A stretch of 64,000 bases of DNA from a virus. Taxonomy: Duplodnaviria > Caudoviricetes. Under the pieces are notes generated by a model. The model saw nothing but the letters and a program-made list of their open reading frames with translations, was not told where the DNA came from and searched no databases. Location of the stretch: positions 2,948 through 66,947 of the IMG/VR virus record IMGVR_UViG_3300033075_001000, one strand, 5' to 3'. Positions within the stretch are counted from its first letter, which is position 1, and each line of letters begins with the position of its first letter. Shown in pieces: positions 3,283 through 39,400 of the stretch. The position numbers were made by a program, and so were the translations under genes.

Positions 3283-3540
3283 ATGGTGACCTACGTGAAG
3301 AAAGCGGCCTCGTTCAGCATCCGCATGACGGGGCAGGAACGGGAGTACCTGGATGCCCTGGCGGCCCGGTACGACAGACCCAGGAGCTGGGTGATCCGAA
3401 AGACGGTCCAGACGCTCGCCAAGCTCGAGAAGAACCGGCGGCAAGGCACCCTGGACGAGAAGGGAGCCGAGGCCCTGAAGGTCCTCGAGAAAGGCCTGAA
3501 GGAGCCCATCCGCATCGTGGATCCGTACGCCGGGGAGTAG
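3283..3540 (+). CDS. Ribbon-helix-helix (CopG-like) DNA-binding protein
   Basis: SFSIRMTGQEREYLDALAARYDRPRSWVIRKTV pattern; RBS GGAGGTAGGAG. Confidence 0.75.
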   Translation: MVTYVKKAASFSIRMTGQEREYLDALAARYDRPRSWVIRKTVQTLAKLEKNRRQGTLDEKGAEALKVLEKGLKEPIRIVDPYAGE

Positions 3541-3551
3541 GTGGAGGGGAA

Positions 3552-3788
3552 GTGAGCGATCGCAAGCACGAGCCGCTCTCCGACGACGTCAAGAAGGCCC
3601 CGGCCAAGAAGAACACCCGGCTCTGGTGCGGCGGCAAGGTCTACCGGGAGCACGTCTACGCCTGGAAGATGGGCGAGTACGACTGGGCCATCCAGTTTTG
3701 CACCAACTGCAACAAGGTCCTACAGCGGTGTCCTCCGCCGGCGTGGAGGACCAAGCGCCCGTGTTGCTGCGGCAAGCACAAGAGGTGA
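3552..3788 (+). CDS. Small Cys-rich hypothetical protein
   Basis: GTG after GGAGGGGAA; CTNC and CCCGKH motifs. Confidence 0.55.
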   Translation: MSDRKHEPLSDDVKKAPAKKNTRLWCGGKVYREHVYAWKMGEYDWAIQFCTNCNKVLQRCPPPAWRTKRPCCCGKHKR

Positions 3789-3791
3789 CTG

Positions 3792-4136
3792 ATGGCGAAG
3801 AAGAAGCTGATCGACCTCGTGAACGAGGTCGTCGAAGATTCGATCCTGCTGGCGGACGGGTTCGACGAGGCCTTCCTCGGCATCGCTACCCGTTGCGGGC
3901 AGCCGCCTGTGGCGGTCTACGACGCCGACCGCTGCATCCAGCTCCTCGTCGACGGGGGCATGGAGTACGAGGAGGCGATGGAGTATTATAGTTTTAACAT
4001 CGAAGGCGCGTGGGTTGGCCCGGGTACTCCTTGCTTCATATGGCGCCTTCAGGAGTGGGACGATGCGAAGGAAGAAAAGCGCAGAGGAGAGGCTGGCGGA
4101 ACGAAGCGTCAGGGACCCGGCCACGGGGTGTCTTGA
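3792..4136 (+). CDS. Conserved phage hypothetical protein
   Basis: [10 protein letters not shown]...VAVYD...[17 protein letters not shown] is a motif I recall from uncharacterised phage proteins. Confidence 0.65.
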
Positions 4137-26384: not shown

Positions 26385-26638
26385 CAGTTCTCCTCTTTCG
26401 GGACGCGGTTCAGGACGGAGATCAGCTTGAGGGCACGATCGGAGCTCTCGGCACACTTCGGGCACCGGCCGACGCGCTCGTCGAAGACGACGTCGCACTC
26501 GACGCAGAGCACCGCGACCTCGAGCGGCAGGGTGTTCTCCTCAGAGGGGGGCTGCATGGTGGGCACCCGGAACGGGAACTTCTTCCATGGGTACTCCTTG
26601 GCACCTGCGGCTATTTTCTGTAGGCCCCGGAATGTCAT
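26384..26638 (-). CDS. Zn-ribbon hypothetical protein
   Basis: CVECD...CPKC. Confidence 0.55.
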   Translation of the reverse strand: MTFRGLQKIAAGAKEYPWKKFPFRVPTMQPPSEENTLPLEVAVLCVECDVVFDERVGRCPKCAESSDRALKLISVLNRVPKEEN

Positions 26639-27108
26639 GCGCCCTCCTTCCAATAATGGTTGTGGACGATCGCCGACACCATCTGTTGGCTCAACCCAAA
26701 CACGGCCCCCACGGCGGCCTGAGTCATATCTCCACGCACGGCCATCTTCCTGATTTCTGTCGCTACTGGCCGCGTTATTTTTCGGTAAGCCACCCTGCGG
26801 CCCTTCTGAATCATGTCCCCGACGTTGTCGGCCTGTGTCCCCAAAAATAGGTGTGCTGGGTTCACGCACGGGGGGTTATCGCACGAGTGCAGCACGCTCA
26901 GGCCTACGGGGATGGCCCCGGAATGCAATCGCCAACTGACTCGGTGGGCCTGCTCCATCCTATCGGCTAGCCAGAACCTCCCGTATCCATCCTTGTCTCT
27001 ACGGCCAGTCCATTCCAAACAACCGGAGGAAGCCGTTGCCGTATGCCGGTGAAACCGTTCGAGGTCCCGTGGTACCATTTCAGCGTGAGGGTGCTTAGTC
27101 GCCTTCAT
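26635..27108 (-). CDS. HNH homing endonuclease with a C-terminal HTH
   Basis: SGCLEWTG...GYGRFW...VLHSCDNPPCVNPAHLFLGTQADN; TQAAVGAVFGLSQQMVSAI; RBS AGGAGGACG. Confidence 0.9.
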   Translation of the reverse strand: MKATKHPHAEMVPRDLERFHRHTATASSGCLEWTGRRDKDGYGRFWLADRMEQAHRVSWRLHSGAIPVGLSVLHSCDNPPCVNPAHLFLGTQADNVGDMIQKGRRVAYRKITRPVATEIRKMAVRGDMTQAAVGAVFGLSQQMVSAIVHNHYWKEGA

Positions 27109-27120
27109 CGTCCTCCTGGT

Positions 27121-27157
27121 GAGCCCCGGACTCGTCACCCGGGGCTCTTCTTTTTTC
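27121..27157 (+). terminator. Hairpin + T-run oriented to stop + strand transcription just before the Y RNA array
   Basis: GAGCCCCGG-actcgtcac-CCGGGGCTC-TTCTTTTTT. Confidence 0.55.
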
Positions 27158-27202
27158 AACGGCAGGGCCCGGCTACGACGAAGGTAACCGGGCGGGTCGT
27201 TG
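27157..27202 (-). ncRNA. Weak fifth Y-like RNA (Y5, minimal)
   Basis: CAACGAC-CC-GCCCGG-UUAC...CCGGGC-CCU-GCCGUUG; shares the GG-UUAC and U-GCC motifs but has a reduced internal loop. Confidence 0.35.
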
Positions 27203-27256
27203 GTGGGGTTGTAGGTGGGGAGATGGCCGAAGAGGCGCGGCCGGAGGGCAAGAGAA

Positions 27257-27351
27257 GAGGGGCAAGGTGAAGAGAGGGAGACCCGAGCGAACCCGGGAAT
27301 GCGTGTCGGCTTATAAGGCTGATGCAGTAACCCTCTCAATTCGGCCCCCTC
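27257..27351 (-). ncRNA. Y RNA (Y4) with a non-tRNA payload
   Basis: GGGGC-CGAAUU-GAGAGGG-UUAC...CCCUCUC-UUCACCUU-GCCCC; payload includes a CCCGGG-UUCG-CUCGGG hairpin. Confidence 0.65.
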
Positions 27352-27405
27352 GTTGTTCAGCGGAAAGCCCGGAACCTTGAATAGCGCCGGGCCTTATTAA
27401 AAGTT

Positions 27406-27530
27406 GCGAGGCAAGAGGTGGGGACGGCCGTTTGAAGGCATCTGCTCTACCGTTGAGCTAGTGGCCCCGAAGGGCGACATTGGATTCGAACCAACAACAA
27501 TATGCTGTAACCGTCTCCGAGCGGCCTCGC
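27406..27530 (-). ncRNA. yrlA: YrlA-type Y RNA (Y1) with a permuted tRNA-like module
   Basis: GCGAGGC/GCCUCGC terminal stem; GGAGACGG-UUAC; T-arm GUUGG-UUCGAAU-CCAAU; acceptor-like stem closed by UUCG; D-arm GCUC-AACGGUA-GAGC. Confidence 0.85.
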
Positions 27531-27540
27531 GGGATGAATG

Positions 27541-27673
27541 TACGGCAAGTTGTGAAGACGATGTTTTAGTGCTCTAACCAACTGAGCTACCCACACCGTA
27601 GAAGGGGTGTGGGGCCGGATTCGAACCAGCGACCTCTCGATCCATAATCGGTAACCGTCTCCGATCGGCCGTA
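27541..27673 (-). ncRNA. yrlA: YrlA-type Y RNA (Y2) with a permuted tRNA-like module
   Basis: UACGGC/GCCGUA and GGAGACGG/UCGUCUUC stems; T-arm GCUGG-UUCGAAU-CCGGC; CCCACACC/GGUGUGGG acceptor-like stem; D-arm GCUC-AGUUGGUUA-GAGC. Confidence 0.9.
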
Positions 27674-27686
27674 CGTTAGGCCGTAC

Positions 27687-27748
27687 GTGGCGGCAAGTTG
27701 GCGCCGAGGGAGACATAATGGAAGTAACCCTCGGCTGTCGGCCGCCAC
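27687..27748 (-). ncRNA. Minimal Y RNA (Y3, 62 nt; Ro-binding-type stem only)
   Basis: GUGGCGGC-CGACA-GCCGAGGG-UUAC(loop)-CCCUCGGC-GCCAACUU-GCCGCCAC. Confidence 0.75.
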
Positions 27749-27802
27749 ATGTTCTTCAGTTGTTAAAGACCCCGGTTGTGCCGTAGCACAATGTAGCGCT
27801 GG

Positions 27803-29446
27803 TCAGACCCTTCCGCAAGCGAAATCTGCGATGAGCCGCGGGGCGACCGTGTCGAACCCGACGACGTCGAGGCAGCCCGGATCCCTGGCGTCCGCGATAG
27901 TGAAACCTGTGGAGGTCATCCCGATGACGACGAGCTTCGCGTCGGTCCCAGTCTGTTTCCGGTACTGCCGGAGAGCCTCCATGGGGTGGACGGACCCGCT
28001 GTGGGTCTCGTTGTCGGTGATGACGATGAAGCAGTCGACCTGGAGTCCCTCCTCCATGGCGTTCAGCATCGGGCGGGCGCAGTCGGTCCCGCCCCAGGGC
28101 CGGTTCTGGGTCGCCTGGAAGGCCTGGGAGAACTGGCACCCGTCGTTGATGCCGAGCGGGATCATCATAGAGTCGCTGGCGGGCCAGCCGTACCGGTTCA
28201 CCACACGGGAGGACGAGAACCCCCGGATGACGTAGTTCGGCTTCTCCGCCTTCGCGATCGCGAGGGCGAGGCACGCAGCCCCGGCCGCCGGGGTGAGTCC
28301 GGGGACGCCGGCGATGACGCCAGAGTACATCGAGGGCGAGACGTCGACGCCGATGTAGAACCGCTTCCCGGTGGGCTCGAGGAAGTCGAAGGACCGCAGG
28401 AACGCCCCGTCCAGGGCCGACACGATCGAGTCGACCTTGACCCAGGTGTTCTTCCCCCGGAAGCCGTGGCCCTGCCCGTACGTCAGGAGGGCCGCCAGGA
28501 GCTGGATCGGGTGGACGTGGGCCTTCCGGATCCACTCGTCGTTCCCGAGCCCCTGGACCACCTTGGCGGTCGCGGCAGACAGCGGCTTGAGGAGGCCGAC
28601 CTCGGTCATCTTCCCCAGGTTCCGGATCATGGCCGTCATGGGCATCCGCTCGAGGAGCGCCGCCCAGACCTCCGTGTCGTTCAGGAACTCGGTCTTGACG
28701 CACTCCCGGGGCAGGTCGTACTTCCGGATGAGCTCGACGGCCTCCTTCGGGTCCGTGGCGCGCTTCATCCGCTCGAAAGCCCAGACGCGGGCGAGGACCT
28801 CGTCCGGGTGGACCTCCTCCCCGACGGAGGGCCAGCCCTTGACGACCCAGTTCAGGATGTCGTTCCGGCGGCCGGCGACCTTCGGGTGGGCCAGACGCAG
28901 GACGTCCCGGTGGGACCATCCGTCCCGGGACTGGTACTTCATGACGTCGTAGACGAGGTCCTTGTCGGAGTGGGCCTCGTACCAGCGGGCGATCGCCTTC
29001 CGCAGACCGGTGCCCATGCCCCGCTCCGACTTCAGCATCGCCATGAGGTGGAAGAGGTGGGTGCCGATCTTGGCGACGCCGGGGAAGGCCTTGTAGGCCG
29101 CGCGCCGGCCCGCCTCCGTGCCCTTCACGGCCACCCGGGCGAGGGCGTAGAGGAGCGGGTCCTGCTTCGGGGCCCGGCGATCCTTGACGTTCTCGAGGAT
29201 CGTCTCGACGACGCGGTCAGGGTCCTCGGCGATGCACCGGTCGAGATTGGCGGTGTTCGCCTTGACCTGGGTCTCCTGGGAACAATAGTAAGTCGAGCCC
29301 TCCGCACCCAGAATGAGGAAGCGCTGGAGGGCCTTCCAGGGGTCGAGTGCGTAGACGAAGCCTCCGGCCTGGTTCTGCACCTGGCTGGAGTCGAGCGGCT
29401 CCCTCTGAGGGATGGTGGACTTCCTCTTGGGAACAAGGTAGGCCAT
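27803..29446 (-). CDS. rsr: Ro60/Rsr TROVE-domain RNA-binding protein
   Basis: QVQNQAGGFV...LQRFLILG...YY; YQSRDGWSHRDVLRLAHP; MPMTAMIRNLGKMT; vWA MIDAS VDVSPSM...TDC...ITDNET; LDVVGFD. Confidence 0.97.
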   Translation of the reverse strand: MAYLVPKRKSTIPQREPLDSSQVQNQAGGFVYALDPWKALQRFLILGAEGSTYYCSQETQVKANTANLDRCIAEDPDRVVETILENVKDRRAPKQDPLLYALARVAVKGTEAGRRAAYKAFPGVAKIGTHLFHLMAMLKSERGMGTGLRKAIARWYEAHSDKDLVYDVMKYQSRDGWSHRDVLRLAHPKVAGRRNDILNWVVKGWPSVGEEVHPDEVLARVWAFERMKRATDPKEAVELIRKYDLPRECVKTEFLNDTEVWAALLERMPMTAMIRNLGKMTEVGLLKPLSAATAKVVQGLGNDEWIRKAHVHPIQLLAALLTYGQGHGFRGKNTWVKVDSIVSALDGAFLRSFDFLEPTGKRFYIGVDVSPSMYSGVIAGVPGLTPAAGAACLALAIAKAEKPNYVIRGFSSSRVVNRYGWPASDSMMIPLGINDGCQFSQAFQATQNRPWGGTDCARPMLNAMEEGLQVDCFIVITDNETHSGSVHPMEALRQYRKQTGTDAKLVVIGMTSTGFTIADARDPGCLDVVGFDTVAPRLIADFACGRV

Positions 29447-29460
29447 GTGGGCTCCTCTCT

Positions 29461-29515
29461 GGTGCGTATCGCACCGGAGCGCACTGTACTACCTACCCTT
29501 CGAAAGTCAAGTCAA
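29461..29515 (-). promoter_or_regulatory. Sigma70-like promoter and palindrome upstream of rsr
   Basis: On the - strand TTGACT-16 nt-TACAGT (29510-29483), then a GGTGCG-ata-CGCACC palindrome (29461-29475) and RBS GAGAGGAG. Confidence 0.6.
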
Positions 29516-29676
29516 TCCTTCTGTTTGAACCAGCGGCGCCACTTCCCCCGCTTCTTGTCCTCGGCGTGGAAGTCCTTGCCGACCTCCTGGTCGACGCCGA
29601 CCTTCTTCGCGAACTCCGGGGAGTGCGCGATCGCGTTAAAAAATCTTGCCTGGCGTTTACTGGACGATGGAGCCAT
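29512..29676 (-). CDS. Conserved small phage protein
   Basis: PSSSKRQARFFNAIAHSPEFAKKVGVDQEVGKDF. Confidence 0.7.
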   Translation of the reverse strand: MAPSSSKRQARFFNAIAHSPEFAKKVGVDQEVGKDFHAEDKKRGKWRRWFKQKD

Positions 29677-30361
29677 CGGACTCCCCCTTCTTCTTGCCCT
29701 CCCAGCGAGCGAGAGCTGCATCTCTGGCCCCTGCCGCCAAGTGCGAGCATTGAGACTTGCCCCTACAGGCCCTGGAACAAAACCGCCGTTTCGTAGCGGT
29801 AGCTGGGGTAACCCGGATAGCGGCCCCGCATCGTTCGCACGGCTTCATGGACTCGGTCCGTTTGTAGGCCCCCGCACACGTCGTGCTACAGAACTTCGCA
29901 CCCCTCCGAACAAACACCGGGTTGCGGTAGAACGTAGCGCCGCAATGGAGACACACTATGTCTTCCGCGGACCTGCGTGGCGTCGGTACAACGGGAGCTT
30001 CCGTAAAATTTACCTCCGCGACCGCGCGCCGCCTGTTGAATTCCTTGCGATAGTTACAATTGTGGCAGAGTAGCTGGTACTTGCCGGCGGGCCAGCCCTG
30101 CCGTTTGAGGCGAGAATAGAGCTGGACACCGCCCGCGCCGGCGGGGCGTTTCCGCTCTGTGTACCCAGTATCGTCGATGTGGTCCAATACCAGTATCACT
30201 GGATCGCCCTCGCCACAAAGCCGACATTTGCCGCCGTACGCGGCTACCATTTCACGTCGGATGCGATCCCTGCGCTCGGCTCCGTAATGCCTCAGATACC
30301 CCTTGTTACATTCGAGCCAACGGGCAAGGTTCTTTTTGGCTTCTTCAGACTTTATCGGCAT
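29657..30361 (-). CDS. HNH endonuclease with C-terminal Zn-finger repeats
   Basis: YGGKCRLCGE...LDHID...YQLLCHNCN; CLHCG...FCSTTC; CERCG...FCSRAC. Confidence 0.85.
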   Translation of the reverse strand: MPIKSEEAKKNLARWLECNKGYLRHYGAERRDRIRREMVAAYGGKCRLCGEGDPVILVLDHIDDTGYTERKRPAGAGGVQLYSRLKRQGWPAGKYQLLCHNCNYRKEFNRRRAVAEVNFTEAPVVPTPRRSAEDIVCLHCGATFYRNPVFVRRGAKFCSTTCAGAYKRTESMKPCERCGAAIRVTPATATKRRFCSRACRGKSQCSHLAAGARDAALARWEGKKKGESDGSIVQ

Positions 30362-30453
30362 GGTGTGCCTTCTGCCTCCACGCCTCAAGTATACCACCGT
30401 CTACGCGAAGAACTTCGCCTGTTTCTTCGACGTGCTGGGCATCGCGCCTCCCC

Positions 30454-33400
30454 TCACTCGTTCCCGAAGATCGCCTTCAGCCGGGCCTCGATCTTCTCGA
30501 CGTCCTTCCCTGACCGGGTCTTCCGCCAGAGCGCCGGCCGGGAGCTGCCGTCAGAGGCCCGTTTCCCGTAGGCCTTCTCGTGGAGGATGGGCTTGATCTC
30601 TTCCCGCTCGCTTCTCGAGGCGAGGTCCCAGAAGTCCAGGGCGATCTCGATCGGCATCGACCTCGAGTAGGCGGCCTGGAGCGAAGTCATCCCGCCGGCC
30701 TTCTCGACCTTCTTCGTGTCCTTCGGGTGGAGCTCGCCTTCGTCTTCCTTCTGCCGGACCTCAGAGAGGATTGCCTCTCGTTCAGCCGGAGTCTTCGCCC
30801 CGCGGAGCCGATCGTCGGCCTGGGCCAGGAACTTCGAGCGGTCACCCTGTTCGCGGGTCTTCGCTCCCTGTGGCATGTGCTCCGCGGAGTACTTCTTCAT
30901 CGCTTCTGTCAGGGGCGTACCCGTGACGTAGCTCGGGGCCCGGGTAACGCCGATCATTGGGGCCCACGCCGGGAGCTTCGTGTTCGGATTCGGGGCGCCC
31001 TCGATCATCTGCCGCACCGAGAACGGCAGGAACTCACGCATCAGGAATTTGGCGTCGTCGAGACGCTGCTGGAAGAACGGGTCTTTCGGGTCGTGGATCT
31101 GGATGTTCCAGAAGTCAGCGTTCCGGCCAATGTAGTAGATGTCACCGAGGACCGGATGCAGCTTGTGGGTGATCGTGGTGAGCGGGTGCGTCGACCAGGC
31201 GAGGACGTCCTTGACGTAGGTGGCATACATGAACCGCTCGTCCGTGCCGTCGGTGTTCTTGGCCCCAGTGGGGACCGCGTAGAGGTCATTGAGCTCCTTC
31301 GGCGCCTTCTTGTGGAGCATGTAGTAGGTCATCGCCCCGATGACGCCCATCCCCCACGCCAGATAGAGGCCGTACGCCATCCTGTGTGTCATGACCGGGT
31401 CCCGGAGGTCGTAGCGAGGCGCCGGCGGCTCTTCCGGCCCGCCTTCGCCGCCCTTCCCGCCCCGCGGCGGCCCTCCCGCCGGCGGTTTGCCGACGCGCCG
31501 GCCGACGGTGAACAGGTCGGTGACGGCCCCTCCGAGGTGCCGGATGTCTCCGGTGTTCCAGCCGAGGCTTCGAACAGCGAGCATCGCGACGTCCTTCGCC
31601 GTGCGGTTCCAGAAGAGGTTGTCGTAGACCATCTGCCCCATCCGGTCGTCGACAGCGTCCCATGCCCGCGCGAGGGCGTGACGCAGGACGTAGGGGTCGA
31701 CGTCGGGGCCGAGGCGCTCGACTTCGTATCGGGCCAGCATGGCGAAGACACCGAGCTTCATCCTCGGCACCCACCACTCCATCAGCCATGCGCCCGTCTT
31801 CTCGAAGAAGGCCGGGAGCAGGTTGCCGAACACTCCCAGGACGCTCTTTTGCCGGAGGGCCCTGCCGAGGGCCTCCCCGGCCTTCGTCATGTAGAGCGAC
31901 TCCTGCTTGAAGCGCCCGCCGGCCGTGATGACCCACTCCACTTCCGGGATGCTGGCGGATCCCGCGAGAGCCTCCTGCATGATCTGGTGACCGCGGTAGA
32001 CGTTCTGGATGGGCGTGTGCGGGGAGAGCCCGAAAGCCATGTTCTTGAGGCCCTGGCGTACGTCGCCCTGGGCAAGCTGGTAGATGCCTACCGCGCCTCG
32101 AGAGGTGAGGGAGTCGAGAACCGTGAACATCCAGTGGAAACCGGAGAGCCCAAGCTGGGCCTGGTTGAGGAGGTTGAAGACCCATCGGACGCCGCGGTAG
32201 GACTTCTTGTGCCCCAGGCCCGGCGAGAGGGCCCGGTTGACGATCCTGGCGACCGGCTTCGGCGCCGCCCAGTAGCCCTTGACGAGCAGGCCGTGCAGGT
32301 CCTGCTTCGTCGTGATGGTCTTACGGGTGATCGTCGGCTTCAGGTCGAGGATCGGGGCGGTCTCGTCGTTCTTCTTGAGGAAGGCCTCGAGCCGCTCGAA
32401 GGCCTTGGGGGCGATCTTCCGGTAGTGCTCCTTGTTCGTGACATACCCGTCGAGGAGGTTCGCGACGAGCTCCGGCCGGCTCATGACGTACTTCTTCCGG
32501 CTCTTCGAGATCTTGTCTTCGGTCTTGATCCGGTCCTCGGCCATCCTCTTGAGCTCGTCCTCGATGCCGGGGGCCCCCTTCATGAGCTCGTCCCAGAGGT
32601 CGTACTTCTGGTCGAGAAGGTGCCCGATCTCGTGCCAGAGGAGGCCCAGGGGGGATGCGAAGCGCGTGAGGATGATGCCCCGCGTCGGGTAAGCCACGCC
32701 GTGGGTTCTACCGGTCCCCGGGAGACGGTAGTGCTTGGCGCCCAGGTCCGCGAGGATCTTCGTAGCACCGTCCCAGAGCTTCTGGTCCACGACCTCGTCG
32801 AGCTTGATGTTGCCGGGGCCGTAGATCGTCCCGACCCGTGGGTCCAGCCTTTCCCAGCCCGGAGGGGGGCTCGGCATCGTCTCGACCGAGAAAGCCTTGA
32901 CATAGCCATGCCGGCGGCCTTCGGCGAGCCACTGGTGGCAGGCGACGTACTTGTAGACGTTGTGGAGGTGATCCAGGACCGCGTCGATCGGGTTCGGGTG
33001 CTTGAGCTTGAGCCCGGGGCCGCCCTCGCTCTCCGGCTTTAGCCCGTCGACGATGAACTCGATGTGCCGCTTCTTCAGGAAGGTCTTTGACCCCTCCCAG
33101 TTCCGCTGCTTCGTGAAAGTGGCCGACCAGTCCTCCGCCTTCTTCGTGTCCGCCCAGAGGTGCGGGAAGTAGTCCTCGAAGAAATGCTTCAGGCGCCCGG
33201 TGCCGAGGTTCCGGATGGCGTCCCGTGCCTCGTCGAGGATTTCCCTGACAAGCTCTGCGGCCTCGTTCAGGACGGGCGTCTCTTGTGGATCCCCGCGCTC
33301 GATCTTGTCGAGGAAGGTGACGACCTCGGACTCGCTCTTGCGGTCGAGCTCGATCTTGGCCGCCTTCAGCATCGTGTGGGCCTGGAGCAGACGGTGCTCC

Positions 33401-36400
33401 CGCCGGGCCGTCGTCTCGCGCATAGAGTCGCCCGCGAGGGTCGCCTCGAGCGTTGCCGTCTGCGGCGCGAAGGCGTTCCGCATGTCGGAGAAGAGCTCGG
33501 AGAACGTCTCCCGGATCGGGTGCTCCTTGACCTTCGGCAGCGGATCCGGCCGCTCCTTCTTCGGCTTGGGCCCCTTTTCGATGAGCCGACGCCCGGCCGC
33601 GAAATCTCCAGCGTCCCGGGTGCTCCCACCGCGAGACGCGAGCCCTGCCTTGCCGGCGGGGGGCACGAGGGAGACGACCGGGTAGGTCGACATGAACCGC
33701 GCCAGTACGGGCTCCAGCGCCTCGTCGGCCGGGAAGAGGTACCGCGACGTATAGCTGTGCCGCTCGACGAGGACGCCCATCTTTTCGACCTGGAGTCTGG
33801 CGTCCCAGAGCTTCTGGGCAGCCTTCTGGTCGTTGTCGTCGATCTCGATCCGCTCGACGCCCGTGATGAGCGACCGCCGGAGCCACCATCCGTTCGCGAG
33901 CTTCGCCCGCCACTTCCCGTTGAGGACCTTCTCGATGACTTCGGTCGGAGTGATCTCGCGCGAGCTCTGCCCGACGCCAAGGTTCGTGAGGACTTCGTCG
34001 AGCTCCGCCGCGTCGATCAGCCTCCCGAGGATGCGCCCGCCGTCCGTGATCTTCACACGGCGGATGCGAGGCGTGCCCGCACCGAGCCGGTTCCAGACCG
34101 GCAGGAGCGCCCCGCTGACGATGTGGAGGGGAGACTCGTGGAACTTCGGGACCAACTTCGACTGCTCGTCCCAGAGCGCCATGGCCTTCTCGAGATCGAC
34201 CTCGTCGAACCGCTTGCCGTCGATCTGGCCGCCCCAGGAGTAGAAGTCCTCCACGGGCTCCCACGCCTGCCCGAATGGGGTCTGGGCGAGGAGCTTCATG
34301 TGGACCGTGCCCTGCTTGTCCGTGGTAGTGGTCCGGTTGTCGTAGAGCGCGTGGATGCGCCCGCTCGCCTTGTTCTTGACGTAACGCTCGATCCCGCGAG
34401 CCCCCGGGAACCGGAGCGGCTCCCGCTTCTTCTTCGAGATGAGCTCGTAGTAGACGGTCTCTGCGTGCGACCGCTTGTCGATGTTGACGACGCTGCGGCG
34501 GACCTCCTTGACCTCGTCAGCCCGGATGTCCTCGACGCCGAGCTCAAGAGTCCCGGCCTGCCGCGCGACGTCGATGAGGTGGCCGAGGAGGCTGCTCAGC
34601 TTGTCGAAAACGATCTTCTGCCCTTCGAGCGGCATCGAGAGCACCCGGTTCAGGAACTGCGTCATCTCCGGCATATCGAGCGTGCTGGTGATGTCGAGCC
34701 CCGTCGCCTCCTGGAAGTCCTCCCTCGACATGCCCTCGAGCTCACCTCCGCGGACCAGCCCGAAGAGTGCCGATAGCGCCTGGGCGGCGAGCGGCGACTC
34801 GAGGTTGTCGGACTCGGTGAACATGCCCTGCCCGGCTGCGGAGCGCTGGCCCTTCGTCAGCGCGCCTGACTGCGCCATGCGGCGAGCGATCGTCGAGACA
34901 AACCGCTTGTGGCCCGGGACCTCTGTAGAGACCAGGATGTCTACCGGCGCGTTCTCCTGGTTCGACCGATGCGTACGGCCGAGGCCCTGGATCGCCTTGT
35001 CGGCACGCCATCCCGGCTGGAGCAGGTAGTGGTAACGGCGCCGCTGGTTCTTCGCGTTCCGCGATGAGTGGTAAGACGCGCCTGTGCCGCCCGCCTCGGA
35101 GAACACGAGGATCTTCTTGCGGTCCGCCATGAAGTCGGCGGCCTCGGAGGCGTTCGCCGTGCTGCCCCTCTTCTCCTCACGGAGCTTCCCGTCCGGCCCG
35201 CGCACGAGTCGAGCATTCCGCCCGGTAACCTCGGCGACCTTGTCGGGCCCGAAGTGGTTGATGAGCTGGTCGAGCGCACCGTCCGGGACCGGGAGCTGCC
35301 CGAGCTCCGTCAGCAGGGCCTCCCGCATCGCGACGGCATCGGGGTTCTCGATGTAGTCCCCCTTCGAGTCCGTCGCGTAGACCATCTTGACGTTGCCGTC
35401 TTCGTCGGTCTTCTCGACCATCTGATGGACGGGGAAGCTCTTCTCGACGTACTCCATCAGGCTGCGCCGCGGCGTGAGGTCGAGGCTCTCGAGATCGTCC
35501 TCTTCCTCCATCTCCTTCTTGGCACGGTCGAGCTGTGCCTTGCCGGTCAGCGTGAGCTGGACGACGACGGCGTGTCCTTCCTTGAGCTGCCTCTCCATGT
35601 CGACCAGGACCGTCGGCATCTGGATCGAGGTCAGGACCATGTTCCAGAACCGCTGGTTCGTGGACCAGAACTGGTTATAGGCGTTCAGCTTCGCCCACTT
35701 GCTGATCCGGTTGGCGTGGTCCTTCGCGGTCAGGCCAAGAGCATCGTCGATCTTGCTCGAGACGAGGCGCCACGCAGACGCGAGCTTGTCCCACATCTCC
35801 TTCTGGCTGTCGGTCAGATCGTGCTGAAGCCGCTGCACCTCGACGCCTTCGAACGAAAGCGTCCGAGCGCAGTAGACGCCCGCGGCCTTCATGCCCTGGG
35901 CCACGAGCTCCATCGCTGCGATACCGCCGCTGGCGACGCTGGTGACGAACTTGCCCTTGTCGGGGAACGCCGTCTCCTCGCCCCAGAGACCGAGCCGGTC
36001 AGCGTAGGCGAGGTTCGAGACTTCCGTAGCCGCCGTCGCAGAGGCGTAGACAACGCGGGACTTCGGGAGCGATCGCGCCAGACCGATGCCGGCAAGGGCC
36101 CTCTTCGAGGGCTCCTTCTTCCGTCCCCCCTTGGACGTCGCGATCGCGTTCGCCATGTTGTGGCTCTCGTCGTAGGCAATGACGCCTTCGAAGTCCGCCC
36201 CGAGCCACTCCTTGATCTGGTCGATACGGGCGACCTTCTTCACCTGGGAGGCGGCCTCCGTCTCGGCCGGCTGGTCTCCCTTCTTCTTCTTCTTCTTGCC
36301 GGAGGACTCCGCTGCAAGCGTCGTGTAGGTGACGACGAGGATGCCGTCCTTCTTCGGGACCGACCCGTCGGACGCGACCTTGTCGAGCCGCATGACGTTG

Positions 36401-39400
36401 TCGGGGTTCATCCCGATTGCCGCGAGCTCCTTCTTGATGTCCTCGACGAGACGCCAGTTCTCCGTCACCCAGACGGCTCGCTTCCGCCCCTGGCGCCAGT
36501 TGTCGGCGATGACTCCGGCGATGATGCGTGCCTTGCCGACGCCGGTGCCGTCTCCGACGAGGAACCCACGGCGCTCCCCGCTGGGAAGGATCTGTTGGTG
36601 GGCGTTCCCGGAGAGGGCGATCGCTTCGAACTGCGCGTCCGAGATGTCGCCGCGCTCCATGGCCCCCTCGGAGATCCACGGTGAGTAATCGACTGGAGGG
36701 TACTTGACGGCCGACATGGCGGCCGACTCGACGAGCTTGGCCGGATGGGGCTTCAGCCCCTTGATCTTGATGCTGGGGGTGTACCGTTCGAAGACCGCCG
36801 TAGAGAGCTCTTCGCTCTCACCCGTACCGGCGGTCTGTTCGACCTTCAGGTCTCGGGCGTCTGGTCCAGCCCCTGGCTCAACGTCGAGGACAGGCGGTCG
36901 TAGTACACCTCCAGCAGGTTTGCCGCGACTTCCGCCGGGCTCTGGCTGTGCAGCCACTCCGGGTCGAGCTTCGGGTGCTCCAGCTCGAGGTCCGGTTCGT
37001 CGTCCGGGTGCACCAGCCACTTCCACGCCCGGCCGTGCTTCGCTCCCAGGAGCGTGTTCAGGAACTGCCCCGCCTCTTCCCGTACTTCCCTGTTCCCCGG
37101 GGGCGTTACCTCGCCCTGTCTCCGGGCCCACTGCATCAGTTGGAGTGCGTACAGGAACTCCGGGTCGGGCTGCGCTACCTGGCCGAGCTTCTCTTTCGCT
37201 AGCTGGTTGAGGGGCGTTTCGTTCTCCGGAACGATCTCTTTCGCCACCGGGCACCTCCGTCTCTATTTTCACTCGTTCCGGGAGTGTCGGCGCGAAATCT
37301 TCGAGCTGCTTCAGTGTCTGGCACTTCCGCTCCCGGATCCCGCCGACGTCCTGGGGCTTCTTCACCTTGTCCCAGATCAGGACCCGGGTCGGGAACGACG
37401 TCCCGTACTTGGCGTAGATCTTCTGGGCCCCCGTCATGTCGAAGTTGGCGACGAGGACTCCCCCGATCGCCTTCATCTCGTCGAAGACGGCCCGGTACTT
37501 CGGGGCAAGCGGGCTCATCCCTGCTCCGACGATCGCCACGAGTCGGCCGCCGTCGCGCAGGGTCCGGAACGCTGCGGTGATGTGCTTGCCGGCCGTCAGG
37601 ATCGCCTTCTTGTCGAGCCCCGCCGATGCCGAGAAGGGGGGGTTCATCAGTACGACGGTCGGCTGGCGATCGCCGCTCAGTTCCTTGGCGAGTGCGGAGT
37701 TGATGATGCCGGCGTCGACCGAGAAGGTCTCGCTCAGGCCGACGCCCATGTGCTGGATCAGCTCGGCCCGGTTCTCCTCGAGCTCGTTACCGAAGAGCTC
37801 CCGCGGCTCGTAGACGTGTGCCGCTGCGGACAGAGAGCCGAGGCCTACCGACGGCTCGAGGACGACGTCGTCCTTCGTGATACCGGCGAGCTTGGCTACC
37901 ACGGCCGCGTAGTCCGCAGGCGTCGAGAACTGCTGGAACTTGTCTGTGGCGACGTCCCGGACGGTCTTCGTCGGGAGGTCATGGATCAGTTCGCGCAGAC
38001 TCTCCCGATTACCCATGAAACGCTTGTCGGTCGCCGCGAGATAGTTGATCGCCAGCTCGATCGCGTCGTAGAGGCGGCTGATCGAGTAGTCCTTCGTGAC
38101 CTCTAGGCCCGTCTTCGCCTTCAGGACGTCGGCGAGGTCCTTCGCCGTCGACCACATCGCCGCCGCCTTGCGGATCCTCTCTCCCGGCGCCATCGGACCG
38201 GTGTGGTAGGTCCCCGGTGGGGCCTGGAGCTCGACGATGGCGTCCCGAAGGGTGCGAAGCATCACCGCCCCGGGGGGCAGATCTGCCTCTACGTCTCGTT
38301 CGGGTCCAGGTCCTGGTTCACCTTCTGGCTCGAGCCCGAGGCCGGGCTGTCGCTGGTCGCCCGGTGCCGTTTCGGCTTCAGGCTCTTCATCGCCGCCGCC
38401 CACTCCTTCGGGTGGAACACCGGGGACAGTATCCTCGCCCTCACCTTGCGCCCGAACCACTTCGGTCCATGGCTGCTGGGATGAGCGGCCCGCGGTCTTG
38501 AGTTTGGAGAGGACGGTGGTCGCATCGTTTCCCTCGAATATCTTAATCGGAATGCCCTGGAACGTGTGGATCTTCCCGTCTTCTGTCTGGATCTCCAGGA
38601 AGGCGTCCTCGAAGGCCTCGTTCACGAGGCCCTTGGCCTCTTCGAGCTCCATGAGCGCCAGTTGGCCTGGCCGCTTGAAGGCGATAACGAACTCGTCTCC
38701 GCCGATATTGAAACCGCTACCCCCGACCGTGATGGCGCACTTTTTCACGATGTCGGCGGCGGCCTGGATCGCCGCATCGCCCGCATCCATGCCGTAGGTG
38801 TCGTTGAACCACTTGAACGCCTTCAGGTCGAGCGCGACGAAGCGCTCGTAAGTCTTCTCCCGGCGGACCTTCTCGAAGGAGTCCTTGTTCCAGAGCCCGG
38901 TGAAGTGCGTATCTGCCCGGCGAGTCTCGGCCTCGGCCCTCTCGCCGAGGAGGTCGACGAGCTCCTCGAGCTCTTCTTTCGAGGCCCGCTTGTCCTTCTT
39001 CTTCTGGAGGAGCTTCTCGATCCGGGCCGTCGTGTCCGGATGCTCCCGGCGCTCCCGCGGGCCTTCCGTGGGCTCCGCCCGGCGCTCGGGGCCGGCGTAC
39101 CGCTCTCCGTCCTCCTCGGTTTCGGTGTCTGCGCCCAGCTCGAGCTGGCCCTCGTCCGACTTGGGACGAGCTCGGTACTGCCCTCGCTCCCGCTTCCCCA
39201 CGATCTCGTCAAGGTCCGCCAGCTCCTCGTCGGTGGCCGTACCCTCTCTCTCTTTCTCGAGTAGACCGTTGACGTGAGCGGTTGTGCTGTCGTCCCACCT
39301 ACGCTCCTCGCCCTCGTAGGCGGGGGCGGAGACCTCGGGAGCCTCGACTGGCGGCCCGAACTCGTGCTCCTTCGGGGGCATGTGTGTGTTCTGAGTCTCC

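What the first reader, a model, noticed from the sequence alone, without database searches (positions are those of the whole stretch)
27157..29515. Phage Ro60 (Rsr) operon with a tandem array of 4-5 Y RNAs: one conserved Ro-binding scaffold, different payloads
Seen: a complete TROVE/vWA Ro60 gene has its own TTGACT-16-TACAGT promoter. It is followed on the same strand by RNAs at 27687-27748, 27541-27673, 27406-27530, 27257-27351 and, weakly, 27157-27202. The first four fit one pattern: terminal stem ending GGC, CG internal loop, second stem ending GG, UUAC, payload, stem, CUU, GCC. The stem sequences differ between copies but keep complementarity. Payloads are two tRNA-like modules, a bare 17-nt loop, and a UUCG-hairpin module. 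Established: bacterial Rsr binds Y RNAs (Yrn1, YrlA/YrlB), Y RNA can tether Rsr to PNPase, and rsr often lies near rtcB RNA-repair genes. Inference: no rtcB/rtcA is in this window, so the phage may use a modular set of Ro60 RNPs to redirect host RNA decay/repair or to decoy tRNA-targeting defences. A diversified multi-copy array of this kind is not something I recognise as characterised.
Basis: partly seen in the sequence, partly recalled or inferred. Interest (0 to 1): 0.92.

Follow-up and report, generated by a model that had tools for sequence, protein, structure and literature searches.

The report
Phage Ro60 operon with four Y RNAs
An uncultured phage encodes the ring-shaped RNA-binding protein Ro60 followed by four small partner ("Y") RNA genes that share one protein-binding handle but carry different cargo. 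This is a larger example of a known protein-RNA pairing, and such multi-copy rows proved common but unannotated beside Ro60 genes of viruses and bacteria.

Summary
The ORF at 27803-29446(-) is a full-length Ro60/Rsr. Y1-Y4 lie directly downstream on the same strand and share one scaffold: terminal stem ending GGC, CG-loop, second stem, UUAC, cargo, second-stem return, CUU, GCC.

Y2 and Y3 are YrlA-type permuted tRNA mimics, though below the Rfam cut-off. Y1 is a bare handle. Y4 carries a non-tRNA cargo with two hairpins. The weak fifth (27157-27202) is a conserved hairpin in the operon tail, not a Y RNA.

Two related viral contigs keep orthologues of each copy, with compensatory stem changes, a different order and a different number (5 and 4 copies). 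The same handle clusters on the Ro60 strand in many loci: at least 4 copies in 9 of 66 viral and 7 of 80 bacterial loci.

This is therefore a new, larger member of the known Ro60-Y RNA kind. Chen 2014 reported YrlA in 22 phages, and phage phiLo has two Yrl RNAs. I found no paper describing arrays of four or more, and Rfam does not annotate them.

This scan had already noted similar handle-plus-cargo arrays beside Ro60-like genes on other DNA. Function is inferred only. A decoy role against anticodon nucleases is unlikely, because no copy has an anticodon loop.

The parts
29483..29510 (-). Sigma-70-like promoter candidate TTGACT-16-TACAGT, 36 nt upstream of the rsr start codon
   Evidence: Consensus scan, 9 of 12 matches; 2 sites found against 0.3 expected. 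Both hexamers and the spacing are conserved in L003 while the flanks diverge. No transcript evidence.
27803..29446 (-). Ro60/Rsr gene (547 aa; TROVE ring plus vWA domain)
   Evidence: Pfam PF05731 plus PF25045. Full-length match to Ro60 and Rsr in PDB 9nen, 1yvp and 2nvo. His187 aligns with X. laevis H187 and is invariant among 12 relatives.
27776..27791 (-). Small hairpin between the rsr stop codon and Y1; role unknown
   Evidence: Fold. The L003 counterpart keeps the hairpin with changed bases on both arms.
27687..27748 (-). Y1: bare handle with a 17-nt loop. GUGGCGGC / CGACA / GCCGAGGG / UUAC..loop.. / CCCUCGGC / GCCAACUU / GCCGCCAC
   Evidence: Fold -33.8 kcal/mol, z -5.7. R1 43.3 bits, as a seed. 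Weak match to nematode stem-bulge (Y-homologue) family RF01656, 20 bits. Orthologue L003a is 74% identical, with compensatory changes in both stems.
27540..27674 (-). Y2: handle plus YrlA-type permuted tRNA mimic. Order: V hairpin, T-arm, 7-bp acceptor-like stem whose loop carries discriminator C + CCU, UA, D-arm
   Evidence: Rfam YrlA 41.1 bits, E 1.6e-7, below the gathering score of 69. Fold z -3.2. Descriptor hit. Orthologue L003e is 78% identical and has CCA at the same loop place.
27406..27530 (-). Y3: handle plus YrlA-type permuted tRNA mimic with a short capped acceptor-like stem
   Evidence: Rfam YrlA 34.4 bits, E 1.4e-5. Descriptor hit. Orthologue L003b is 69% identical. Stem 2 has one A.C mismatch. 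The fold alone is not significant (z -1.4).
27367..27392 (-). Hairpin in the 54-nt Y3-Y4 spacer, followed by UUUCC; possible weak internal terminator or processing site
   Evidence: Fold -17.8 kcal/mol, z -2.2. It did not meet the terminator scan's rule. L003 has only 10-15-nt spacers there.
27257..27351 (-). Y4: handle (GCCGAAUUG is the best GNCGAA match of the four) plus a non-tRNA cargo of about 50 nt ending in hairpin CCCGGG-UUCG-CUCGGG
   Evidence: R1 23.4 bits, E 0.007 in the whole window; not a seed. Orthologue L003c is 79% identical, with the cargo conserved. Similar two-hairpin cargos occur in L025.
27110..27256 (-). Conserved pyrimidine-rich tail with three hairpins (about 27225-27242, 27157-27202, 27124-27144), running into the RBS of the next gene. 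It includes the proposed fifth RNA, which is not a Y RNA
   Evidence: Fold -61.3 kcal/mol, z -3.6. Alignable with L003 6279-6420. R1 scores of 8 bits or less, equal on both strands.
26635..27108 (-). Next gene: HNH endonuclease. It is not part of the cassette and is absent at the syntenic place in L003
   Evidence: Pfam HNH_3 and PHROG HNH families. L003 ORF map.

Best explanation
The locus is a phage rsr operon: a Ro60 gene and four Y RNA genes.

Probable course of events (inferred, by analogy with M. smegmatis yrlA-yrlB):
- The operon is transcribed from the conserved promoter upstream of rsr as one precursor.
- Host nucleases cut the precursor at the 9-12-nt spacers.
- Each RNA is bound by Ro60 through its handle, that is, stem 1 with the GGC-CGA bulge region.

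The cargo of each RNA would then tether the Ro60 ring to a different partner:
- Y2 and Y3 present a tRNA-shaped module (T-arm, D-arm and acceptor-like stem, with no anticodon arm) to tRNA-recognising enzymes or to PNPase.
- Y4 presents a different two-hairpin module.
- Y1 carries no cargo and may only gate or occupy Ro60.

During infection the set most likely retargets host 3'-to-5' RNA decay, or RNA quality control, in the phage's favour.

Shown here: the gene, the four RNA structures, their covariation, their conservation as distinct types, and their recurrence beside Ro60 genes.

Inferred: binding to Ro60, processing, the partners and the benefit to the phage.
For: Ro60 identity:
-. The histidine corresponding to H187 is conserved. 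A review reports that the H187S mutant lacks Y RNA binding (PMC11277228).

Handle:
- All four copies share GGC-CG(A), then 11 nt, then UUAC, then CUU-GCC. These correspond to the published GNCGAA motif and YUAY element of YrlA (PMC4201824).

Statistics:
- Only these four descriptor hits occur in 128 kb of window sequence.
- Rfam YrlA gives E 1e-7 and 1e-5 for Y2 and Y3; R1 gives E 0.007 for the non-seed Y4.

Association with Ro60:
- R1 finds 73 hits in 66 viral loci and 71 in 80 bacterial loci, all 144 on the Ro60 strand and most within 2 kb of the gene.
- Descriptor hits, same strand against opposite strand: 122:16 (viral) and 115:16 (bacterial).

Covariation:
- Stem 1 is 92.8% paired. Overall, 173 cells show double changes, against 55 in shuffles and 20-34 when partners are slid.
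- The stem-2 extension was not in the model. In 49 non-seed hits it averages 7.1 contiguous pairs, against 4.2 with swapped partners; 0 of 2000 permutations reach this.

Orthology:
- Y1, Y2, Y3 and Y4 correspond to L003 a, e, b and c at 69-79% identity, against 36-64% between paralogues.

Precedent:
- M. smegmatis YrlA and YrlB are processed from one precursor.
- phiLo Ro60 binds two phage Yrl RNAs and forms a complex with host PNPase (PMC12135203).
- Abundant RNAs lie upstream of an Rsr-like gene in a Listeria phage (PMC12282133).
Against: - There is no evidence that the RNAs are made. The one metatranscriptome that held part of the stretch covered only pieces of the rsr coding region, as assembled contigs that may be DNA.
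- Y2 and Y3 do not reach Rfam's gathering score.
- The folds of Y3 and Y4 alone are not better than shuffles (z -1.4 and -1.6).
- Only Y4 has a near-exact GNCGAA; Y1-Y3 have GCCGAC, GCCGAU and GCCGCU.
- The contig has no PNPase, RtcB or other RNA-repair partner, and the host is unknown.
Confidence: 0.85

Rival explanations
1. Only Y2 and Y3 are free-standing Y RNAs. The cargo-less Y1, which starts 54 nt after the rsr stop codon, and perhaps Y4, would be Ro60 binding sites within the operon transcript. They would feed back on rsr mRNA stability or translation, or simply protect its 3' end.
For: - Y1 lies directly behind the stop codon and has no effector module.
- Bare copies are the commonest class, 67 of 122 viral hits.
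- There is no transcript data.
Against: - Bare copies occur upstream as well as downstream of rsr. There are often two or three per locus, and some lie between other Y copies or tRNAs.
- One bare copy reaches the gathering score of the nematode Y-homologue family.
- Y4's cargo is conserved at 79% in L003, which a plain protein-binding site would not need.
Confidence: 0.1
2. The region is a decayed phage tRNA gene array, and the shared flanks are remnants of tRNA processing signals, so there is no functional tie to Ro60.
For: - T-arm and D-arm sequences in Y2 and Y3.
- Phages often carry tRNA arrays next to Ro genes, for example Sixama and Sparky.
Against: - ARAGORN finds no tRNA in the window.
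- The arm order is permuted (T before D) in both copies.
- Y1 and Y4 have no tRNA parts yet share the handle.
- The handle covaries and tracks the Ro60 strand in 144 of 144 model hits.
Confidence: 0.03
3. The RNAs are tRNA decoys against host anticodon nucleases or other tRNA-targeting defences.
For: - tRNA-like modules are present.
- The cassette lies next to a 3873-aa polyvalent protein, a class linked to conflict with the host.
Against: - Y2 and Y3 lack an anticodon stem-loop, because the handle occupies that position. Enzymes that read or cut the anticodon loop would have no target.
- Y1 and Y4 are not tRNA-like.
- Decoying of enzymes that recognise the elbow or the acceptor end is not excluded.
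Confidence: 0.07

Closest known systems
Bacterial and phage YrlA/YrlB Y RNAs with Rsr (S. Typhimurium, M. smegmatis; YrlA predicted in 254 bacteria and 22 phages; Chen et al. 2014, PMC4201824; Rfam RF02553)
   Same: - Encoded next to rsr on the same strand.
- Terminal stem with a GNCGA-type 5' strand, and YUAY starting the cargo.
- tRNA mimic in the order V, T-arm, acceptor-like stem, D-arm (Y2, Y3).
- More than one Y RNA per locus, probably from one precursor.
   Different: - Four copies of three cargo classes instead of the two characterised.
- Y2 and Y3 score 41 and 34 bits against a cut-off of 69.
- The 3' strand of the handle (CUUGCC) is also conserved. Chen et al. say this holds for D. 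radiodurans and animal Y RNAs but not for YrlA.
- No rtcB or rtcA nearby.
Thermus phage phiLo Ro60 with Yrl1 and Yrl2 (PMC12135203)
   Same: - A phage-encoded Ro60 with adjacent phage-encoded Y-like RNAs carrying a CGAA-type bulge.
- No phage PNPase. In phiLo the host PNPase joins the complex in vitro.
   Different: - Two RNAs upstream of the gene, against four downstream here.
- tRNA-like modules were not reported there.
- The proteins are only distantly related.
D. radiodurans Yrn1/Yrn2 and the Ro60-Y RNA-PNPase machine (RYPER)
   Same: - Several small RNAs encoded beside rsr.
- Both strands of the Ro-binding helix are recognisable.
- It supplies the model for the tethering function.
   Different: - Different cargo layout.
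- Function has been shown there and not here.
Animal Y RNAs and nematode stem-bulge RNAs (Rfam RF01656 and related)
   Same: - A set of several paralogues with one Ro-binding stem and different loops.
- Motif order GG(U/C)CGA ... GGGUUAUC ... CUUG.
- Y1 gives a weak match, and relative L004 5961-6028 a match above the cut-off, to RF01656.
   Different: - Separate pol III genes in animals, against a tandem operon here.
- The similarity may be convergence on the same protein surface.

Membership tests
Ro60/Rsr protein | TROVE HEAT-repeat ring followed by a vWA domain, full length | tested here: met
   Pfam PF05731 (107 bits) and PF25045 (168 bits). Residues 10-547 align with nearly the whole of the PDB Ro60/Rsr chains.
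Ro60/Rsr protein | Residue needed for Y RNA binding (H187 in vertebrate numbering; the H187S mutant is reported to lack Y RNA binding, PMC11277228) | tested here: met
   His187 aligns with X. laevis H187 in the motif LRL(S/A)H and is invariant in 12 relatives. Binding itself was not tested.
Y RNA (general) | Encoded close to the Ro60 gene on the same strand (prokaryotic Y RNAs) | tested here: met
   All four lie within 550 nt downstream of rsr on the - strand.
Y RNA (general) | 5' and 3' ends pair into a stem that carries the Ro60 site, GNCGAAN0-1G on the 5' strand | tested here: inconclusive
   The stem is met in all four and covaries. The motif is near-exact only in Y4 (GCCGAAUUG). Y1-Y3 have GCCGAC, GCCGAU and GCCGCU, so only the GNCG core is invariant.
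Y RNA (general) | Bound by Ro60 in vivo or in vitro | not testable with these tools
   Needs pull-down or gel shift.
YrlA (Rfam RF02553) | Score at or above the family's gathering cut-off (69 bits) | tested here: not met
   Y2 41.1 bits, Y3 34.4 bits; no match for Y1 or Y4. The viral relatives also fail the cut-off.
YrlA (Rfam RF02553) | tRNA-like core: T-arm, acceptor-like stem-loop, UA, D-arm in that order, with YUAY opening the V region | tested here: met
   Y2 and Y3 align over model positions 1-114 with intact T and D arms. UUAC follows stem 2. Not met by Y1 or Y4.
rsr-rtcBA RNA repair operon | RtcB ligase and/or RtcA cyclase adjacent to rsr | tested here: not met
   No RtcB or RNA-ligase match in the 67-kb contig. 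The contig is about half a genome.

The most novel reading that the evidence does not exclude
Rows of a Ro60 handle with interchangeable cargo would be a general and so far undescribed way in which viral and bacterial rsr loci are organised.
- Two to seven RNA genes share the Ro60 handle.
- They display different cargos: bare, permuted tRNA mimics, tRNA-order mimics with an anticodon-like arm, and non-tRNA hairpin modules.
- They are gained, lost and reordered as cassettes.
- Together they act as an adaptor set that sends one Ro60 ring to several different partners.

In phages such a set would be a host-takeover or counter-defence tool. The handle's likeness to animal Y RNA and nematode stem-bulge RNA stems would then reflect common descent.
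Probability: 0.3. Interest if true: 0.7.

Novelty: new member of a known kind. Interest (0 to 1): 0.42.

Why it matters
What bacterial and phage Y RNAs do, and why one Ro60 needs several of them, is still open. Only pairs of Y RNAs have been studied in bacteria and in one phage.

A compact phage operon with four clearly different Y RNAs is a convenient test object for the tethering model, in which each cargo recruits its own partner. This is the more so because orthologues of each type, and natural gain, loss and reordering, can be seen in relatives.

The survey also shows that standard annotation misses these RNAs. Rfam cut-offs and GenBank phage records do not call them at most Ro60 loci, including loci of cultured actinophages where experiments are possible.

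Tried and rejected
The closest Ro60 relatives (93%, 75%, 71% and 70% identity) could therefore not be fetched. Covariation rests on more distant relatives.
- A megablast search of phage records found nothing.
- The search for related loci with the single protein found nothing; the profile was needed.
- Rfam at gathering cut-offs gave no hit in the window. ARAGORN found no tRNA.
- A mixed MAFFT alignment of bare and cargo-bearing copies misaligned the 3' halves (A3), so it was not used for a model.
- Model R1 cannot span cargos of about 85-95 nt, so it misses Y2 and Y3 even with filters off. Those two rest on Rfam YrlA and the descriptor.
- RNAalifold on A4 recovered only stem 1.
- Sequencing runs: the RNA run X19 covered only parts of the rsr coding region at 95-99% identity, as contigs, with nothing on the array. 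X20 is probably DNA. This gives no evidence for or against expression of the Y RNAs. The small shares in sludge, soil and wastewater runs are relatives, not this phage.
- Two key reviews (PMC10870794, PMC6542706) are not held. A published remark on larger arrays cannot be excluded.
- Searches for the names YrlC, YrlD, Yrn3 and Yrl3 found nothing relevant.
- The fifth RNA was considered and rejected.
- Small ORFs over the array (for example 27447-27716) were rejected as coding. The region differs from L003 by cassette-sized gains and losses and by paired stem changes.
Full report
**Where the window comes from**

The window is most of a 66,947-bp IMG/VR viral contig that CheckV estimates as about 51% complete. 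Its G+C content is about 65%. Phage genes surround the finding:
- a virion structural protein, HNH endonucleases, and a YqaJ/RecE-like exonuclease with RecT;
- a 3873-aa polyvalent protein with Strawberry-notch helicase and GGDEF domains.

**The protein**

ORF 27803-29446(-) encodes 547 aa.
- It has Pfam TROVE and Ro60-vWA domains.
- It aligns end to end with the solved Ro60 and Rsr structures, E 1e-105 to 1e-111.
- His187 aligns with X. laevis H187. A review reports that the H187S mutant lacks Y RNA binding (PMC11277228). The residue is invariant in 12 relatives.
- A sigma-70-like TTGACT-16-TACAGT lies at 29510-29483.
- In relative L003 (Ro60 69% identical) the same place reads TTGACT-16-TACATT, although the flanks have diverged. 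This is the only support for promoter function.

**The RNAs**

On the - strand behind rsr, four stretches fold into the same two-stem frame:
- Y1: GUGGCGGC/CGACA/GCCGAGGG/UUAC..17-nt loop../CCCUCGGC/GCCAACUU/GCCGCCAC
- Y2: GUACGGC/CGAUC/GGAGACGG/UUAC..93 nt../UCGUCUUC/ACAACUU/GCCGUAC
- Y3: GCGAGGC/CGCUC/GGAGACGG/UUAC..about 83 nt../CCGUCCCC/ACCUCUU/GCCUCGC
- Y4: GAGGGGGC/CGAAUU/GAGAGGG/UUAC..about 50 nt../CCCUCUC/UUCACCUU/GCCCCUC

How far this exceeds chance:
- I wrote a descriptor: GNCG closing a stem of at least 6 bp, then a second stem of at least 5 bp ending just before UUA, then any cargo of 8-150 nt.
- It finds exactly these four in both strands of the 64-kb window and nothing elsewhere.
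- Shuffled copies of the window give about 6 hits per 128 kb. Four hits in one 500-nt stretch on one strand is therefore far beyond chance.

Support from models:
- Rfam's YrlA model aligns over its full length with Y2 (41.1 bits, E 1.6e-7) and Y3 (34.4 bits, E 1.4e-5). T and D arms are intact, but both scores are under the gathering score of 69.
- Nothing in the window reaches any Rfam gathering score, and ARAGORN calls no tRNA.
- Y1 gives a weak match to a nematode stem-bulge RNA family, the worm homologues of Y RNAs (20 bits).

**The fifth candidate**

The fifth candidate (27157-27202) is a hairpin in a conserved 147-nt tail (fold z -3.6).
- My handle model scores it 3.5 bits on either strand.
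- It has no GNCG or CUUGCC.
- In L003 the hairpin is kept but GGUUAC is not.

I do not count it as a Y RNA.

**Relatives**

I therefore used a 12-sequence Ro60 profile to collect 71 viral loci and 80 bacterial loci.
- L003 has five copies behind rsr, and L004 (56% identical Ro60) has four.
- Each window copy has one clear orthologue in L003: Y1-a 74%, Y2-e 78%, Y3-b 69%, Y4-c 79%. Paralogues within the window are 36-64% identical.
- The order differs (a, e, b, c in the window; a, b, c, d, e in L003), and type d is missing here.
- The types are therefore older than the split of these phages and are kept apart, while the array gains, loses and reorders units.
- Reading the orthologous pairs directly shows double changes that keep pairing. 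Examples: Y1/L003a stem 2 has GCCGAGGG:CCCUCGGC against GGCAGGG:CCCUGCC, and Y2/L003e stem 1 has GUACGGC:GCCGUAC against AGGGGC:GCCCCU.
- Synteny is kept on both sides: polyvalent protein, rsr, array, small ORF, exonuclease. The two HNH genes that flank the cassette in the window are absent in L003.

**Handle model and covariation**

I built a covariance model (R1) from 24 cargo-less copies. It contained only stem 1 and the three innermost pairs of stem 2.
- It finds Y1 and the non-seed Y4 (E 0.007), and nothing else in the window.
- It finds 73 hits in the viral loci and 71 in the bacterial loci, all 144 on the Ro60 strand.
- On the model-made alignment, stem 1 is 92.8% paired. There are 173 double-change cells overall, against 55 in shuffles and 20-34 when partners are slid. 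That alignment leans towards the model.
- As an unbiased test I looked at the outer part of stem 2, which the model does not contain, in the 49 hits that were not seeds. A hit's own arms form on average 7.1 contiguous pairs, against 4.2 when arms are swapped between loci. None of 2000 permutations reaches the observed mean.

**How common arrays are**

I combined R1 and descriptor hits; both give lower bounds. The largest same-strand cluster per locus is:
- at least 2 in 33 of 66 viral loci and in 28 of 80 bacterial loci;
- at least 4 in 9 viral and 7 bacterial loci;
- 6 copies at the most.

Further points:
- Cargo classes among descriptor hits are bare or short, YrlA-type (T then D), tRNA-order (D then T, viral loci only), T-arm only, and other.
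- Cultured phages have such RNAs too, unannotated. Bxz1-like Ava3 has three upstream of its Ro gene, and Sparky has two.
- At Rfam gathering cut-offs, none of the copies in 15 array-rich loci is called YrlA. A few cargos are called tRNA, and one bare copy is called a nematode stem-bulge RNA.

**Literature**

- Chen et al. 2014 (PMC4201824) predicted YrlA near Ro60 in 254 bacteria and 22 phages, but reported only the best match per genome. They defined GNCGAAN0-1G and the YUAY that opens the V loop. They showed two Y RNAs each in S. Typhimurium and M. smegmatis (the latter cut from one precursor) and at least two in D. radiodurans.
- Thermus phage phiLo Ro60 binds two phage Yrl RNAs and forms a ternary complex with host PNPase (PMC12135203).
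- A Listeria phage study suggests that three abundant RNAs upstream of an Rsr-like gene may be Y RNAs (PMC12282133).
- I found no description of arrays of four or more. Two reviews were not available.
- Earlier agents of this scan reported comparable handle-plus-cargo arrays beside Ro60-like (mostly DUF2828-type) genes in other phages. This is therefore not the scan's first sighting, though here the protein is a canonical Ro60 and the handle is the published YrlA one.

**Mechanism**

The most likely reading is the standard one: Ro60 binds each handle, and the cargo decides what the ring is tethered to.
- Tight 9-12-nt spacers argue for one precursor.
- Y2's acceptor-like stem is 7 bp, followed in the loop by a discriminator C and CCU; the orthologue L003e has CCA. 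It is then followed by GUGUGGG-UA-GCUC, exactly like positions 1-13 of a tRNA. This predicts RNase P cleavage and CCA repair, as shown for M. smegmatis YrlA. That is inference.
- Because the handle takes the place of the anticodon arm, a decoy role against anticodon nucleases is unlikely for this array.
- No RtcB, RNA ligase or CCA-adding enzyme is on the contig.
- No expression evidence could be obtained.

**Verdict**

This is a real, well-supported four-member Y RNA operon of a phage Ro60. It is a new and larger member of a known kind, of moderate interest mainly as a tractable example of a widespread, unannotated multi-copy organisation.

Noticed in passing
L008:1204-2240; L066:3062-3911; L107:1001-2295; L025:3222-3783: Same-strand rows of 5-6 handle-bearing RNAs beside Ro60 genes of other viral and bacterial contigs. 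At least 4 copies occur in 9 of 66 viral and 7 of 80 bacterial loci (lower bounds).
   Followed up: partly
L008:1795-1918 and 1928-2069; L041:365-500; L022:3531-3666; L048:3490-3617: Some cargos are tRNA-order mimics (D-arm, anticodon-like arm, T-arm) enclosed by the Ro60 handle. Rfam calls tRNA inside two of them. This cargo type differs from YrlA and is absent from the window.
   Followed up: partly
L066:3348-3911: Handle RNAs alternate with ordinary tRNA genes (3410-3482, 3604-3675, 3751-3823). This suggests that tRNA processing enzymes cut the precursor.
   Followed up: no
L004:5961-6028: A cargo-less viral Y RNA reaches the Rfam gathering score of the nematode stem-bulge RNA family RF01656 (40.2 against 38 bits). 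The handle motifs GG(U/C)CGA...GGGUUAUC...CUU resemble animal Y RNA stems.
   Followed up: partly
L078:2060-2405 (Mycobacterium phage Ava3); L076:2117-2295 (Sparky): Cultured mycobacteriophages carry three and two unannotated Y-like RNAs just upstream of their annotated Ro-like genes. These are usable experimental systems.
   Followed up: partly
window 30454-42075 (-): A 3873-aa polyvalent protein (Strawberry-notch helicase AAA_34 plus Helicase_C_4, GGDEF domain) lies upstream of the rsr cassette. The same neighbour is present in L003.
   Followed up: partly
window 26635-27108 (-) and 29657-30397 (-): Two HNH-type endonuclease genes flank the rsr cassette here but are missing at the syntenic places in L003. 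They are probably independent homing-endonuclease insertions.
   Followed up: partly
window 27597-27612 (-), within Y2: The loop of Y2's 7-bp acceptor-like stem reads discriminator C + CCU, while its orthologue L003e has CCA. [quoted passage not shown]
   Followed up: no
window 27415-27504: In two metagenome runs (sludge, soil), contigs of relatives keep the Y3 handle flanks but have 92 different letters in place of the 88-nt cargo. This could be a cargo swap or strong divergence within a conserved handle.
   Followed up: no
window 27110-27256 (-): A pyrimidine-rich tail of about 147 nt with three hairpins follows the last Y RNA and is conserved in L003. Its role is unknown (3' end formation, processing, or another RNA).
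   Followed up: partly
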